Shown here: positions 10,161 through 31,100 of the stretch, one piece after another
Layout of the letters: each line of letters begins with the position of its first letter
Position numbering within the stretch: position 1 is the stretch's first letter
NCBI GenBank assembly: GCA_035221665.1
Contig: CM069162.1
Span: forward strand, 16,306,001-16,370,000
Direction of reading: 5' to 3'
DNA from: Okamejei kenojei
Lineage: Eukaryota
Length of the DNA: 64,000 nucleotides
Program-made: the position numbers

Positions 10161-13100
10161 ATAAATAAACAGATAAAATGCAATAGGCTGTTATTTTTCA
10201 GAGCTTGGAGTTTGGTTGTGGTGGGTCCACTCCACTTTAAATTCCATTTGGAATATTTTTGGAGGACCATGAAGCCAAGAAGCAAGAGTTACTCCAGGGA
10301 GTTACTCCAGCTCCAGGGAGTAATTCTGCGTTGGTTTTCAACGGTCGTGGTGAGGCGGCGACCAGACAGCAATGGCGGCCAGATCTCCCGCAATGCAAAG
10401 GGAGGGAGAAAGTGACCGACGCCGACCAGTTGCTGTGGCAGTGCGCTTGTGCAGGGCGGCACATGCGCACAACCACGGTCGATGATGTGCTGGCCCTGGT
10501 TGTGCGCATGTGCAGGGGGAGGATGTGCAGGCCGTGGCAGTGCGCATGCATGTATAAGGAGACCCGAGAGCCGGACACGAATGGCGGGCAGAGATAGAGA
10601 GTGACAGAGAGAGATAGAGAGAGGGCCCGCTCAGAATTAAACAATAGGTGTCCCGGGTACTTGCCAAGCCGGGTAAAATGGCATGGCTTTCAGGTTGCCC
10701 AGTGGGACTGTAGGTTGCCATTGGCACCCGTGCAACCGTTAATTTCGAGCCCAGAACAGTTGTCAATGTCTCACCTTTTCAGTTAGTTAAAACAAAAAAA
10801 TGTGTTTCACTCACTTAAATAGTACGGTTCAGGAGAATGAGATGCGTGGCAGGCTTGTCATTCAATGCCTCAGAGTAGCTTTGCAGCAATATTCTGAGAA
10901 TCAAGAATGCAGTATTTGAAAATTGATAGATCCAAGTAAAGTAATTTTCCAACAAAGTAGTTGAAGAGCTTCCAATAATTACATCTTTGTCATATTTCAA
11001 TGCCATTTCATCATTCTGTGTGGCATGGAAGGAAGGCCTTCAGTCCACAGAGCCTTTGCTGACTAAATCAACTGCTTTCCACCATTCACGCAAAAAAAAA
11101 CTTTCTTTTTTGCGTACGAATTATCAACATCCATCCCCAGAATTCTCCAACCACCCATGTCACTAGGGATAGTTTACAGTAGCCAATATCCCTCACAGTC
11201 AGTATATATTTGGGGTTTTGAACAAAGTGGGAGCATTCACACAGTGACACAGCTACACAGCTTGCAGCGCTATTATACCATGTAGTTTTATGATTTTTAT
11301 TTTGTTAGTTGCTATAGTGCACCTTATATGGTTCTGCAACTATAATGATTGTGTTGTAGTTTAAGGCAATGGATGGATGCAGATATTTTGTCTATAGAAG
11401 AACCAAAGATCTTTGTCAAGGCCCCTGCAATGGGCCCCATAGTTCATGGCATGCAGAGTAATCCTGCCATCACACTGCTAGAGATCCTGTTATTTAATTT
11501 ATTAACTTACTCCTTAAATTCTCCTTGCTCCTCATCTCCCTTCCTACCTGTGACGTTGGTACCAAAATGGACCACAGCCTCCCTCTGTTCACCCTCCCCT
11601 CTCAGAATGTCCTGTGCTCGCTGCCTTAACCTTGGCACCAGGGAGGCAACAGAGCCTCCTGGAGTCTTGCTTGGGATTACATAAATGCCTGTTTGTACCA
11701 CTGACTATGGCTCACCTAGATTGAACCCTACTTGGCTGTTCAGCAGAGCCAGATGTGGTACCACTGTTCTGGTTACTACTACTATTTTCCCCCTCCACAG
11801 TATCTAGAATGGTATCCTTGTTTGAGAGGAAGATAGCCACACGAGAATCCTGCACTACCTGTCTGCCTCTCCTGGTGGTCACCCATCTATCTTCCTGAAC
11901 CTTTGAAGTGACCACCTGCCTATAACTACTGTATATAAACCCTTTCTGCATCCTATAGCTTCTCAGTCTGCCCAATTGCTGCTCCAATCGATCCACTGAT
12001 GGACACACTTCCTGCAGTTAAATGTATTTCATTATGCCAGTACTGCAACCAAGTTTCTACCTCATATGCTGTACAGTGCCATTCATTGCACCTCTCAGAA
12101 TCAACTCTAGGCGGATGGTCAATGTGTGTGTAATGGGAAAGTGTTTGTTATAATGGCTTGTTTGTTATAATGGATAGTTCATTTTACTTAAAGTTAACAG
12201 GTTTAGGGGATGTTAATCTTGGTTGTGTCAAATTTCATATGATTTTATCAGAATATTTTTCTTGAGTAGTGATGATTCCTTTGTCTTTCTGAGCAGAAGA
12301 TTCGAGGAATCTCACAGAACAGGAGTTCCTATTACTGCACAGACAGGATCTTGCAGAGGCCGTCCAAGACGTGCAAGGTTTAGTGGAATCTGTGACAAAC
12401 TGTGATGATATCCCATTGCCAGAGAAAACGGTATTGACACACACAATTTTAAAGAAATATCTTTATGTCTTTCAAATGTGATTGCTTCTCTGACACCCCC
12501 CCCGAGCACTGGTGATGTGGCTCTTGCCTGAGCATTAATTATCTTATTAAGATAATACTTGATCCTTTCCCATTGAACAATGAGGCAGACTCCCCACATT
12601 TTTATGTCACTAGCACAGGGTCTCAGACTGCATTGTTTTTTGTAGAGGTGGTAGTGCATAGATTTAGGAGTCAAAGGGGAAAGTGAGTTATTATTTTAAG
12701 CTATTTTGATTTTATTTAACGTATTTAATTATTTGTGTTTTTAGTTAACATTTAAAATTTTTTAAATGTTTTAATTAAATGTTCTTTTTTTATATCTTGA
12801 TAGTTTTAATTGTCTCTAACAATGATTACACTTGGCAAACCCAGTCTTCCACTTTGCCATTTGCCAGGGACATTTTGTGATGAGGATATCTTCATTGTAT
12901 TACGTGATACACTTGCCATCTAGTCCATGTACCAGGACTTTTGGGGTGAATGTCCAGCGATATAATCCTTCTGCATCTATAAGTGCGTCTATCAGTCCAT
13001 GTAAGTGTAGGTATGGATGGACAGCAGGTAGTGTTCCTGGGTGACCGGACAGTGTTCCAGGGACTGATAGAGTGAGATAGTTTGGATTGGGTTTGCATGT

Positions 13101-28100: not shown

Positions 28101-31100
28101 TGGCAGTGTTCTTGCAGGCCCATGAAGCGTAACGCAGAGGAGGGGCTGACTGCTGTCACCAGACAGTTGCACTCACAGAAAAGCTTGTCCCAATATACAA
28201 CAGACTTGAGAATCATTTAAAAAAATAATCTTAGAGTAATTACAATTATTTTTTCTAAAACAAATAGCATGTAAAAAGCACACACCCATGAACAGAATAT
28301 TTAACCAGCATAGTTGCATTAAACAATAGGCTTTTCTAATGATAAACAATTTCTATCATTCATTTAATGATAGTGCCTATGGCAGGTTTAGTTTGAGTCG
28401 GAGGACGAACTGGATTATCGTAAGCGCCTGATTTATCAGTAGTTGGCCACAATTGTTAGTGGCGAAGCTTCTTGACGAATAAATAACTCTATCATTGTCA
28501 AAGTGGAAGTAGGGTTGTGCAAACTCTTTGTGTGAGATTGCACATTCACTTTCTTAATATTTTAGATGAATGGCTTTGCAACATTAGGTCAGTGACCCTT
28601 CATTGTTGAAAATATTATGAGGTGTAAGTGAGATTTCCTGCATGCATGGATTGTGTGCTTTCAGGGAATGTTCCAGCACCATCACAGATGTAAGTGAAAG
28701 ATCCATCAGCATCAGATGTACTGATTGGTGTGAGCAAAGGTCTCAGCAGCATCACAAGAGTTTCTGACAAAAATAAAATGAAATATTATTTGTACTCAAT
28801 AACCATTTTTCCAATAGAATCTCGTGCATTTTGTAATTTCAGCATTTTACTGGCATTTCCATTAGTTTTGCTAACATTTTCTAATATAAAAGCAAGTGCA
28901 TGTATTTTGTACTTGTTGAATTAAAGTCTCTCTTGCTATCACAGGTGTAGGTTGCATTATGGTAAAAGTCCTTGCATTGTGCAAATAGCATTTCTTGTAT
29001 GTTCTGTTTTGTGATACAGTACCACATCACTGTTGATAAAAGAATGGGATTCTTCCATCTGTTTCAGTCAATTCCTGGGACAGATTCAAGGCCCATAATT
29101 TTTATGTGAAATTAATAGAGAGATGCTTTTACATGTGGTGGGGTAGTCAGACAAGAGTCAGCACAGTGGCACAGCTAGCTGGGAGAGCCGCTGCCTCACA
29201 GCACCTGAGACCCAGATTGGATCTTGGGTGCTGTCTTTGTGGAGTTAGCAAGTTCTCCCTGTGACTGTGGGTTTTCTCTGGGTGCTCTGGTTTCCTCCCA
29301 CATCCCAAAGCAGGTTTGTAGGTTAATTGACCTCTATAAATTGCCCCTAGTGTGTAGGCAATGGATGCAAAAGTGAGATAACAGAGTAGTGTGAACAAAT
29401 GACCAATGAACGGCGTGGACACAGTGGGCTGAAGGGCCTGTTTCCATGCTATATCTTGCAATCCATTAATCATCTAGGAAATAGGGCAGCAAAGGAAACA
29501 AATGGTGAACAATAATGCATTCCCACCACCTTTAGATAAAAAAAAACACCTCAATTAATAGGTGATGTGAATCGATAGAGACCACATAATTGCAATTTCC
29601 ACAACACGCAGTTAACTGTCTGTCACCTTCTGCAAAGTATATTGACGCTAAAAAATAAGAATAGTTTACATAATTTATACTAGAGTTATACAAAAATGCA
29701 GGAGAATTAGTTCAAGGAGCTGAGTAGTTATAGTTTATATTGACCTGACTAATTATTCAGTGCTGTGGCAGGTTGAGTGTATACATTGAGTAGATTTTTG
29801 ATATGCACTAAAAATATATATTTTTAAATTCTCATGAATTATTTGCATGGTTTATATTTCTTCCCACTGTCAGATTTTGAAGAGCTGTTGTTTCAAGGAT
29901 ACTGCTGGTCAGTCACTAGAAAGTATTCTGGGCAAAATTCTAGAAGAACGGCTCGTTCCTGCCCTGGTGTTTTGTAAACTCTTGCATATGATCAGTGAGT
30001 CCCATCCGTCCCTTGAATTGGTAATGAAGACAATGGAACATGCAGGTAACTGTACAAAGAAGGATTTGCGTTTAGATATCTTATGAGCATGGGCACAAGT
30101 AAGATTTATAGTTTTGTCCATAAAACGTTATTTTACACCGACTTGCTTTGTACCTCTACAGGTACCGTAAACAAACAAATTTACTTGCGTTCCAAAGTTA
30201 AGTCATCTTCAGGGATTGTAATGGTTATTTTCCATCTTACAAAGTTGGAGAACTAACTTTGATGCAATTGCTCTAACTTTCACAGATTTCAGATTCCTAG
30301 CCTGTCATTTTGTGAACTTGCTAAAAACGTAATGCCTACTACTACCTACTGTCAATAAAATGATCCCTTTAAGGACCAATTTTGAATCCACACCCACATT
30401 GTGGTTCAAGGCATAGATTGTAAAATTTCTCTGGAGTAAGCTTGTTCACAGCTTATTGATCCACAAAGAATGACACTTGCAGTATTTTGCTCAGCAATAA
30501 TCAGCAATGATTTTTGAATTGCCTCAGTTTGTAACTTTTAAAATATAATTTCAAGAAATATCCCTCGGAAAAGCAGAAGGAAAATAAATTAGTAAGAATT
30601 AGAAATACTTGAATCAGTAGCACATATGAGAGAAATTATGAATACTTCAGGTTGTTGGTTATCATGAAGGTGAAAGCAGTTTTCCTCTCTGCTTATAACT
30701 TTTAAAATCAAACTTCTGTTAGATTAAATAGTAATGTCTATATCTAAATTCAAACCTAGATTTAAGGAGCTAGCTAGTAGTTCCATTTCACCACTAAATG
30801 CAGGGTGAAATAATCATGAACATTTCATAGTCGTAGAGAGTCACAGGGCACAGAAACAGGCCCTTTGGCCCAGCTTGTCCATGCTGACCAAGATGCCCAA
30901 TCTAAACTAATTCCATTTGCTCACGTTTGTCCCATGCCCATATAAACCTTTTCTATCCATGTGCCTGTCCAAGTGTCTTTTAAATCCTTCTCTGTTTTTA
31001 AATGTCTTTGTGCATTGTCTATTCTTCTTCACAAAACTGCAGCCACCCAGGCAGTGAGCTCTGTCGGCCATAGATATGAATTCTGTTCTTCATTGAACAC

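What the first reader, a model, noticed from the sequence alone, without database searches (positions are those of the whole stretch)
12297..30045. Exon architecture records tandem duplication of a symmetric two-exon cassette
Seen: each unit is a 134-140 nt exon (phase 1-0) plus a 172-199 nt exon (phase 0-1), with the internal intron at the homologous position. Cassette lengths are 333, 333, 336 and 309 nt, all multiples of 3 and bounded by phase-1 introns. Established: class 1-1 modules are the typical substrate of exon shuffling. Inference: one domain cassette was inserted between BTB and fingers and quadruplicated, and whole units could be skipped in frame to change valency. This supports the domain boundaries independently of the protein similarity.
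Basis: partly seen in the sequence, partly recalled or inferred. Interest (0 to 1): 0.65.

Follow-up and report, generated by a model that had tools for sequence, protein, structure and literature searches.

The report
Four CARD-like units in skate ZBTB40
The middle of a skate's ZBTB40 gene consists of four very old copies of a two-exon module, each encoding a CARD-like helical bundle, arranged so that pairs of exons can be left out without breaking the reading frame.

Summary
Eight exons between 12297 and 30045 (+ strand) alternate 134-140 nt (phase 1 to 0) and 172-199 nt (phase 0 to 1). All have AG/GT borders, and the pair sums are 333, 333, 336 and 309 nt. An annotated ZBTB40 protein of the skate Leucoraja erinacea matches every border at 80-100% identity per hit, 80% for the 2a hit that runs on into the upstream intron. 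The window is not human.

The four units are paralogous. All six b-exon pairs give z 4.2-13.2; five of six a-exon pairs give z 2.9-6.3. Units 1, 3 and 4 each form one clade across 20 jawed vertebrates; unit 2 is less resolved. The quadruplication therefore predates the split of cartilaginous and bony vertebrates.

Each unit is predicted to be a six-helix CARD-type bundle, and the inner intron cuts helix 3. Unit 1 of three relatives passes Pfam's HSR cut-off; the skate's own exons do not.

Annotated isoforms of other species drop whole units, or a b+a pair that leaves a hybrid unit. Insertion by exon shuffling, a donor shared with AIRE/SP100, and any role in oligomerisation remain inferences.

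The parts
6895..7654 (+). Coding part of the BTB exon of ZBTB40 (ATG at 6895). Its donor lies after 7654, in phase 1.
   Evidence: Pfam BTB E 2.9e-21, 76.2 bits. 93% identical to P0001 residues 1-252. Donor CAG|gtacaa.
12297..12430 (+). Exon 1a, 134 nt, phase 1 to 0. Encodes helices 1a, 1b, 2 and the start of helix 3 of unit 1.
   Evidence: Helix positions come from the model.
13165..13363 (+). Exon 1b, 199 nt, phase 0 to 1. Encodes the rest of helix 3 and helices 4-6 of unit 1.
   Evidence: (100% identical to P0001 residues 298-364). Weak Pfam HSR match, E 0.034, 14.7 bits, below the 24.9 cut-off.
18679..18818 (+). Exon 2a, 140 nt, phase 1 to 0.
19039..19231 (+). Exon 2b, 193 nt, phase 0 to 1.
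23412..23548 (+). Exon 3a, 137 nt, phase 1 to 0.
25587..25785 (+). Exon 3b, 199 nt, phase 0 to 1.
27292..27428 (+). Exon 4a, 137 nt, phase 1 to 0.
   Evidence: Weak Pfam CARD match, E 0.18, 12.3 bits, below the 23.9 cut-off.
29874..30045 (+). Exon 4b, 172 nt, phase 0 to 1. It is the shortest b exon and lacks the C-terminal tail of the other units.
32007..32429 (+). The next exon, 423 nt, holding a linker and the first zinc fingers. It is also phase 1 to 1, so the unit array sits between two phase-1 borders.
   Evidence: The homologous 142 residues are missing from whale shark isoform X3.

Best explanation
The window carries the ZBTB40 gene of a skate. Between the BTB exon and the zinc-finger exons lie eight exons that alternate type a (about 45 codons, phase 1 to 0) and type b (57-66 codons, phase 0 to 1).

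Each a+b pair encodes one helical bundle of 103-112 residues of the CARD / HSR (death-fold) kind. The inner phase-0 intron cuts helix 3. The four units are paralogues made by tandem duplication of the two-exon module before cartilaginous and bony vertebrates split, and each has been kept as a separate orthologue since.

Because intron phases run 1,0,1,0,1,0,1,0,1, leaving out any two neighbouring exons keeps the frame. Dropping a+b removes a unit. Dropping b+a joins the front of one unit to the back of the next.

Shown here: the exon plan, the paralogy, the age of the duplication, the predicted fold, and the existence of such isoforms in the annotation of other species.

Inferred: (1) the module entered a phase-1 intron of a BTB zinc-finger gene by exon shuffling from, or together with, the ancestor of the AIRE/SP100 HSR-CARD; (2) the array serves homotypic or scaffold contacts, as nuclear CARDs do in AIRE and SP100; (3) splicing sets its valency at 4, 3 or 2.
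For: Exon plan: matched by the annotated Leucoraja protein.

Paralogy: (z up to 13.2), with the same intron column in all four units.

Age: in trees of 80 units from 20 species (10 elasmobranchs, a sturgeon, a frog, 2 turtles, a crocodile, a bird and 4 mammals), units 1, 3 and 4 each form one side of a branch. Support is SH-aLRT 98 in the quick tree and bootstrap/SH-aLRT 100/97, 100/99 and 100/98 in the careful tree. Bowfin and the teleost Albula also show four units.

Fold, four-unit model: the model of P0001 has mean pLDDT 79 and four bundles with a kinked first helix. Its 8 best PDB matches are RIG-I or MDA5 tandem CARDs, with Foldseek probability 0.84-0.99.

Fold, unit 3 alone: pLDDT 91.1, pTM 0.83. 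Of the 45 PDB rows shown, 37 are CARD proteins by title. They include ICEBERG (probability 0.98), the CARD8 filament (TM 0.63) and the SP100 CARD filament 9tnz (TM 0.55/0.60).

Sequence family: Pfam HSR is above its 24.9-bit cut-off on unit 1 of whale shark (31.2 bits), Mustelus (25.7) and paddlefish (26.8). It matches 5 of 9 four-unit regions at E up to 1, best 1e-9. PF03172 is precomputed on 8 of the 120 proteins.

Specificity: a profile of the four b exons finds only 28 proteins at E up to 0.001 among 1.84 billion representatives. The seven strongest long ones carry 3-4 matched stretches each.

Isoforms: half-unit models were run on the 120 proteins listed. 81 are full, 4 lack unit 2 (all elasmobranchs) and 8 lack unit 3. 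16 are 1a-2b hybrids and 3 are 3a-4b hybrids. For six isoform pairs the deletion ends fall on, or within one residue of, the transferred skate exon borders.

Shared gene plan with AIRE: passages of PMC5394715 place the donor of intron 1 at c.132+1. Table 1 of PMC9175554 places the acceptor of intron 2 at c.308-1 and the CARD at residues 1-105. That gives 44 codons ending in phase 0, then 175 nt ending in phase 1. ZBTB40 has 44-46 codons ending in phase 0, then 172-199 nt ending in phase 1. The a|b border maps to about position 42|43 of the 99-position HSR profile in three relatives.

Function of nuclear CARDs: passages of PMC7118133 (Aire CARD filaments), PMC4548144 (HSR/CARD needed for nuclear bodies and homodimerisation) and PMC13649554 (SP110-SP100 CARD-CARD contact).
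Against: The skate's own sequence passes no Pfam HSR or CARD cut-off. Taken exon by exon the best values are 14.7 and 12.3 bits. The four-unit region of P0001 gives HSR 13.6 bits and CARD 10.6 bits.

Unit 3 of 12 species gives no HSR or CARD match at E up to 1 (0 of 12).

No Foldseek match reaches E 0.001; the best are 0.07 and 0.25. TM-scores are 0.5-0.63, moderate only.

Profiles of the a exons, the b exons and unit 3 find no CARD in the sequences of the PDB.

The pair 2a-3a is not significantly similar.

Unit 2 is not one clade in the careful tree; it is one group in 70% of 200 bootstrap trees.

The isoforms are annotation models of other species; I saw no transcript data for any of them.

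The match of intron positions with AIRE rests on residue counts, not on an alignment.

No binding or oligomerisation was tested.
Confidence: 0.82

Rival explanations
1. The duplications did not always copy the reader's a+b cassette. After the first copy, later rounds may have had their break points in the phase-0 inner introns and copied b+a. Alternatively, unequal crossing-over reshuffled halves. In either case front and back halves of today's units would have different histories.
For: Trees of the halves pair the units differently. The a halves give (1,3)|(2,4) with SH-aLRT 62; the b halves give (1,2)|(3,4) with SH-aLRT 89. The b+a register is a working splice unit in annotated isoforms, in 19 of 120 proteins.
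Against: Support is weak and the halves are short (46 and 66 columns). On whole units all three pairings are compatible with the data: the best tree gives (1,2) with support 76, and the AU test gives p 0.45 for (1,3) and 0.60 for (1,4).
Confidence: 0.2
2. The four units were acquired separately from different HSR/CARD genes, not by duplication inside ZBTB40.
For: The two-exon plan by itself does not decide the matter, since AIRE seems to have the same plan (PMC5394715 and PMC9175554, passages).
Against: The units resemble each other far more than they resemble the HSR or CARD profiles: pairwise z reaches 13.2, against sub-threshold Pfam scores. The b-exon profile finds 28 proteins in 1.84 billion, and the strongest long hits each carry 3-4 stretches. 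All four units lie head to tail in one gene.
Confidence: 0.04
3. The units are generic six-helix bundles that merely resemble CARDs and are not related to the HSR/CARD family.
For: No Foldseek E-value is at or below 0.001. There are no PDB sequence hits. Units 2-4 pass no Pfam cut-off. The protein-atlas scores of 0.76-0.81 are in the range that shuffled proteins often reach.
Against: Pfam HSR is above its curated cut-off over nearly the whole profile (8-98 of 99) for unit 1 of three species. Nearly all top structural matches are CARDs and not other helical folds (37 of 45 rows; the first 8 rows). The kinked first helix, recalled as typical of CARDs, is predicted in all four units.
Confidence: 0.07

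Closest known systems
HSR/CARD domain of the SP100 family and AIRE (Pfam PF03172; SP100 CARD filament, PDB 9tnz)
   Same: Both are nuclear DNA-binding regulators with a CARD-type bundle. Unit 1 of three ZBTB40 relatives passes the HSR cut-off. The unit 3 model matches 9tnz at TM 0.55/0.60. AIRE's CARD appears to use the same plan of two coding exons, with phase 0 inside and phase 1 at the end (PMC5394715 and PMC9175554, passages).
   Different: SP100 and AIRE carry one N-terminal copy followed by SAND, PHD or bromo domains (PMC4548144, passages). ZBTB40 has four internal copies between a BTB domain and C2H2 fingers. The skate's own units fail the Pfam cut-off. Filament formation is shown for Aire and SP100 (PMC7118133 and PMC13649554, passages) and was not tested here.
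Tandem CARDs of RIG-I and MDA5
   Same: They are the best PDB matches of the four-unit model (ranks 1-8, probability 0.84-0.99, about 200 aligned columns). Both have CARDs in direct tandem within one chain.
   Different: They have two CARDs, not four. They are cytosolic RNA sensors. Their two CARDs pack rigidly (PMC11874512, passage), whereas the ZBTB40 model has pTM 0.40, so no confident packing between units is predicted. Sequence identity is 14-18%.
Class 1-1 exon modules multiplied by tandem exon duplication (exon-shuffling theory; recalled, not looked up)
   Same: The module is bounded by phase-1 introns, its length is a multiple of three, and copies lie head to tail between phase-1 borders of the host gene.
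   Different: The module is split by a conserved phase-0 intron inside a helix. The array therefore has two in-frame skipping registers, and one of them yields hybrid domains.
Other BTB zinc-finger (ZBTB) proteins
   Same: [quoted passage not shown] The best database hits are named ZBTB40.
   Different: The ZBTB family is described as a BTB domain plus fingers (PMC10480536, passage). I found no paper that names folded CARD-like units in ZBTB40.

Membership tests
ZBTB40 orthologue | N-terminal BTB/POZ domain | tested here: met
   Pfam BTB, 76.2 bits against a cut-off of 20.5, on window 6895-7653.
ZBTB40 orthologue | Best database relatives are ZBTB40, collinear over all exons | tested here: met
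   The top hits are named ZBTB40, and Leucoraja erinacea is 93% identical over the BTB exon. The exon-by-exon tblastn match runs from residue 1 to 1249 of P0001. The window's own exons were not joined, so its full-length protein was not compared.
ZBTB40 orthologue | C-terminal C2H2 zinc-finger array | tested here: met
   C2H2 match in window 31982-32431. Further finger exons match P0001 at 36663-50769. P0001 has 10 zf-C2H2 stretches.
Pfam HSR (PF03172) | Score at or above the curated cut-off of 24.9 bits | tested here: not met
   Window exon 1b scores 14.7 bits and the four-unit region of P0001 scores 13.6 bits. The cut-off is met only by unit 1 of relatives: whale shark 31.2, Mustelus 25.7, paddlefish 26.8. 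The skate units are therefore HSR-related through orthology, not by their own score.
Pfam CARD (PF00619) | Score at or above the curated cut-off of 23.9 bits | tested here: not met
   Best values are 12.3 bits (exon 4a), 10.6 bits (P0001 unit 2) and E 0.067 among 9 relatives.
CARD / death fold (structure) | Six-helix antiparallel bundle with a kinked helix 1 (feature recalled) | tested here: met
   Predicted only. The unit 3 model has helices 4-14, 16-22, 26-35, 41-50, 56-68, 75-87 and 90-99 at pLDDT 91. The same pattern appears four times in the model.
CARD / death fold (structure) | Significant structural match to solved CARDs | tested here: inconclusive
   CARDs dominate the lists: 37 of 45 rows and ranks 1-8, with probability up to 0.99. 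No E-value is at or below 0.001, and TM-scores are 0.5-0.63.
CARD / HSR (function) | Homotypic association or filament formation | not testable with these tools
   The complex-prediction tool could not take the job: its queue was full and it was then withdrawn.
Class 1-1 symmetric exon module | Both flanking introns in phase 1 and a length divisible by three | tested here: met
   333, 333, 336 and 309 nt, with phases 1...1 for each pair.

The most novel reading that the evidence does not exclude
ZBTB40 is a nuclear protein with four tandem CARDs. Its units and the HSR-CARD of AIRE/SP100 descend from one two-exon ancestor: a phase-0 intron in helix 3 and a phase-1 intron at the end. The array would then be a polymerisation or scaffold platform tuned by splicing. 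Its valency would be set either by deleting a unit or by splicing the front of one CARD to the back of the next, giving a functional hybrid CARD. I know of no description of such domain-internal recombination by splicing for death-fold domains.
Probability: 0.3. Interest if true: 0.7.

Novelty: new variant of a known kind. Interest (0 to 1): 0.5.

Why it matters
ZBTB40 is reported as a telomere-associated protein of ALT cells (PMC10480536, abstract and passages). It is also reported as an old transcription factor that sits on hAT/Charlie transposon remnants (bioRxiv 10.1101/2024.11.11.622123, passages). The roughly 440 residues between its BTB domain and its fingers are not described in the papers I could search.

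If that stretch is four CARD-like units, there is a concrete hypothesis for how the protein assembles on chromatin: through CARD-type homotypic contacts, as in AIRE and SP100. A set of natural three-unit and hybrid-unit isoforms would be at hand to test it.

For gene evolution, this is a clean and very old example (older than the shark/bony-vertebrate split) of a domain multiplied as a two-exon module. Its alternating intron phases give two in-frame skipping registers. Much of this can probably be seen in public domain and structure databases, so the surprise is moderate.

Tried and rejected
**Searches of the window's own exons.** Pfam taken exon by exon gave only sub-threshold HSR and CARD matches. 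Profiles of the a exons, the b exons and unit 3 against PDB sequences found no CARD. The best hits were carbonic anhydrase, vitellogenin and designed repeat proteins, at E 0.0028 or worse.

**Viral structure library.** Foldseek of unit 3 against it gave nothing with probability above 0.33; a few viral CARD proteins appear at E 1.4-3.3.

**Protein atlas.** CARD clusters came first for units 1 and 4, but the scores of 0.76-0.81 are leads only.

**DNA-level traces of the duplication.** There are none. The only strong intron match is an interspersed repeat.

**Order of the duplications.** It is not resolvable.

**Donor gene.** I therefore left all 28 (P0121-P0148) unexamined, because unnamed hits might come from people's samples. 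Some of them (276-1014 residues, 2-3 stretches) could be other families or deep-branching ZBTB40, and this stays open.

**Named relatives.** Two further named searches returned only elasmobranchs, and then sturgeon, paddlefish, bowfin, one teleost and a frog. No chimaera or lamprey protein was obtained.

**Complex prediction.** A job for three copies of unit 1 was never accepted: the queue was full and the tool was then withdrawn. Nothing was folded.

**Supplements.** Its main text has no 'ZBTB', so a listing of ZBTB40 there cannot be excluded.

**Left out on purpose.** The window's exons were never joined. All searches with window sequence were exon by exon, and whole-unit analyses used annotated proteins of other species.

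
Full report
**What the window is.** The window has no N. On the + strand it carries a BTB exon (ATG at 6895; Pfam BTB E 2.9e-21), eight short exons between 12297 and 30045, and zinc-finger exons from 32007 to a stop at 50770-50772. A search with the BTB exon alone returned 582 proteins at E up to 1e-10. Of the 120 listed, almost all are named ZBTB40. The best is isoform X1 of the little skate Leucoraja erinacea (P0001, 1249 residues, 93% identical). The window is therefore ZBTB40 of a skate close to, but not identical with, that species. 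It is not human. Every analysis that needed a whole unit used annotated proteins of other species.

**The observation.** The exons are 12297-12430 (134 nt), 13165-13363 (199), 18679-18818 (140), 19039-19231 (193), 23412-23548 (137), 25587-25785 (199), 27292-27428 (137) and 29874-30045 (172). All are flanked by AG and GT, most with pyrimidine-rich acceptors. Counted from the ATG, the nine introns from the BTB exon to the first finger exon have phases 1,0,1,0,1,0,1,0,1. The pair sums are 333, 333, 336 and 309 nt. Local tblastn of P0001 against the window gives one hit per exon, 93.8-100% identical for seven cassette exons and 80% for the 2a hit, which runs on into the upstream intron. The hits break at these borders, so an independently annotated gene model of a close relative uses the same exons.

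**Are the four units really alike?** I scored each exon translation against the others and against 500 shuffles. All six b-exon pairs are significant: z is 13.2, 12.7, 9.0, 8.1, 5.1 and 4.2, with at most 2 of 500 shuffles reaching the score. Five of six a-exon pairs are significant (z 2.9-6.3). The pair 2a-3a is not (z 0.7, 110 of 500). The 16 a-versus-b controls are all flat. In an alignment of the four units of P0001, the inner intron falls in one column. Nothing remains at the DNA level: the best exon-exon blastn E-value is 0.007, and the only strong intron match is an interspersed repeat.

**How old is the duplication?** A profile of the four units finds four units in most ZBTB40 proteins listed. 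I cut 80 units out of 20 species: ten elasmobranchs, a sturgeon, a frog, two turtles, a crocodile, a bird and four mammals. Two further amphibians of the 22 I listed were dropped because only three units were detected. In the trees, units 1, 3 and 4 each form one side of a branch. Support is SH-aLRT 98 in the quick tree and 100/97, 100/99 and 100/98 in the careful tree. Unit 2 is one group in the quick tree with support 37. It is not one group in the best careful tree, but it is in 70% of 200 bootstrap trees. Bowfin has all eight half-units. In the teleost Albula, six half-units were assigned to their own classes, 2a was not detected and 3a only weakly, which still reads as four units. The quadruplication therefore predates the common ancestor of cartilaginous and bony vertebrates, and the copies have not homogenised since.

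**Order and register of the duplications.** The order stays open. All three pairings of the units are compatible with the data (best tree (1,2) with support 76; AU p 0.45 and 0.60). The a and b halves prefer different pairings with weak support. It is therefore also open whether every round copied a+b rather than b+a.

**What a unit is.** Taken exon by exon, the window gives only hints: exon 1b against Pfam HSR (E 0.034) and exon 4a against CARD (E 0.18), both far below the cut-offs. Unit 1 of whale shark, Mustelus and paddlefish ZBTB40 passes the HSR cut-off over nearly the whole profile. HSR matches 5 of 9 four-unit regions at E up to 1, best 1e-9. CARD matches 3 of 9 and CARD_2 matches 2 of 9, all weakly. 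Unit 3 of 12 species gives no such match.

**Structure predictions.** An AlphaFold model of the four-unit region of P0001, built with eight relatives as its alignment, has mean pLDDT 79 and pTM 0.40. It shows four bundles with the same helix pattern, including a first helix broken in two. Its eight best PDB matches are the tandem CARDs of RIG-I and MDA5 (probability 0.84-0.99, E 0.07-0.6). A model of unit 3 alone, from a stingray with 11 relatives, has pLDDT 91.1 and pTM 0.83. Of its 45 listed PDB matches, 37 are CARD proteins by title, among them ICEBERG, CARD8, RIG-I, NOD1, NLRP1, MAVS and the SP100 CARD filament 9tnz. Against this, no Foldseek E-value reaches 0.001, TM-scores are 0.5-0.63, and sequence profiles find no CARD in the PDB. 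I therefore call the units CARD-like, and HSR-related through unit 1 of their orthologues. I do not file the skate units as members of either Pfam family. In both models the a|b border lies at residue 45|46 of the unit, inside helix 3.

**A shared gene plan with AIRE.** HSR is the CARD-like domain of SP100 and AIRE (PMC4548144, passages). Mutation names in two papers fix AIRE's coding exon borders. [quoted passage not shown] The other is 'c.308-1G>C', listed under intron 2, with the CARD at residues 1-105 (PMC9175554, Table 1 and legend). AIRE's CARD is thus 44 codons ending in phase 0, followed by 175 nt ending in phase 1. A ZBTB40 unit is 44-46 codons ending in phase 0, followed by 172-199 nt ending in phase 1. 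In three relatives the a|b border maps to about position 42|43 of the HSR profile. This fits one two-exon ancestor for both. It rests on residue counts, however, and I could not align an AIRE sequence here.

**Skipping.** I compared annotated isoforms of one species with each other and transferred the skate exon borders onto them. Dolphin X4, elephant X3 and loggerhead X5 lack 1b+2a. Dolphin X3 lacks 3b+4a.

With models of the eight half-units run on all 120 proteins, the architectures are:
- 81 full;
- 16 with the 1a-2b hybrid (turtles and mammals);
- 8 without unit 3 (turtles, ostrich, sterlet);
- 4 without unit 2 (all elasmobranchs);
- 3 with the 3a-4b hybrid (cetaceans);
- 3 with units 1-2 only;
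- 2 without a detectable 4a;
- 1 with 1a-2b-4a-4b (tuatara);
- 1 without unit 1 (axolotl);
- 1 with six units (a frog).

Two of the 120 carry no name. Both are 'full', which gives 79 of 118 without them. These are gene models, and I saw no reads. The recurrence in independent annotations, at or within one residue of the transferred exon borders, still argues that both registers are used. The second follows from the phase-0 inner introns and would make hybrid units.

**How it probably works.** Shown: the exon plan, the paralogy, the age, the predicted fold and the annotated isoforms. Inferred: that the array acts like other nuclear CARDs. Aire's CARD forms filaments needed for foci and activity (PMC7118133, passages), and SP110 and SP100 meet through their CARDs (PMC13649554, passages). 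ZBTB40 would then combine a BTB domain, four CARD-like units and a long finger array, with splicing setting the number of units. I could not test any contact, because the complex-prediction tool never accepted the job.

**Is it in print?** Full-text searches for ZBTB40 with CARD (as whole words: 2 unrelated papers), with HSR, death fold, death domain, SP100 or AIRE, and with isoform found no description of these units. The ZBTB40 telomere paper has none of the words CARD (outside a reference), HSR or isoform. Subscription journals and domain databases were not searchable, and Pfam HSR hits on some orthologues are already precomputed (8 of 120). I therefore rate this a new variant of a known kind, of moderate interest.

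**Left open.** The 28 unnamed proteins that match the b-exon profile were not examined. Chimaera and lamprey were not obtained. The donor question and the function are untested.

Noticed in passing
window 14924-15955 (+), inside the intron between units 1 and 2; also 58809-59246 (-): An open frame of 344 codons with a reverse-transcriptase match (Pfam RVT_1, E 8.8e-14), which looks like a LINE remnant in the intron. A second, weaker RVT_1 fragment (E 2.7e-6) lies downstream of the gene.
   Followed up: partly
window 4501-5500: A CpG island (GC 0.68-0.70, CpG observed/expected 0.73-1.05) lies 1.4-2.4 kb upstream of the ATG exon. It is probably the promoter and an untranslated first exon of ZBTB40.
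   Followed up: no
window 32007-32429: The first finger exon (423 nt) is itself phase 1 to 1. The homologous 142 residues are missing from whale shark isoform X3, and 139 residues from a turtle isoform. In-frame skipping therefore extends beyond the four units.
   Followed up: partly
window about 24687-24986 and about 29166-29456 (opposite strands); also about 18892-18944 and 29402-29453: A 309-nt match at 71% identity (E 5e-36) links the inner introns of units 3 and 4, in inverted orientation. A 53-nt match to the inner intron of unit 2 also occurs. These look like an interspersed repeat, not a trace of the duplication.
   Followed up: partly
window 27263-27284, just upstream of the acceptor of exon 4a: A run of 22 C forms the pyrimidine tract of this acceptor. 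(TA)20 at 10117-10156 and (AT)24 at 32518-32565 lie in neighbouring introns.
   Followed up: no
P0102 (Anomaloglossus baeobatrachus ZBTB40, 1559 residues): The half-unit models read 1a-1b-2a-2b-3a-3b-4a-4b-3a-3b-4a-4b, that is six units. This is either a recent re-duplication of units 3-4 in this frog or an assembly or annotation artefact.
   Followed up: no
Unit 3 of Hemitrygon akajei ZBTB40 (first row of alignment A4): A sub-threshold Pfam match to DUF325, 'viral proteins of unknown function' (E 1.6e-4, 21.9 bits against a cut-off of 28; 2 of 12 species). The best hit in the viral structure library is ORF91L of black bullhead herpesvirus, at probability 0.33. It may be chance.
   Followed up: partly
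whole window: No Rfam family reaches its gathering score, and no tRNA gene was found.
   Followed up: yes
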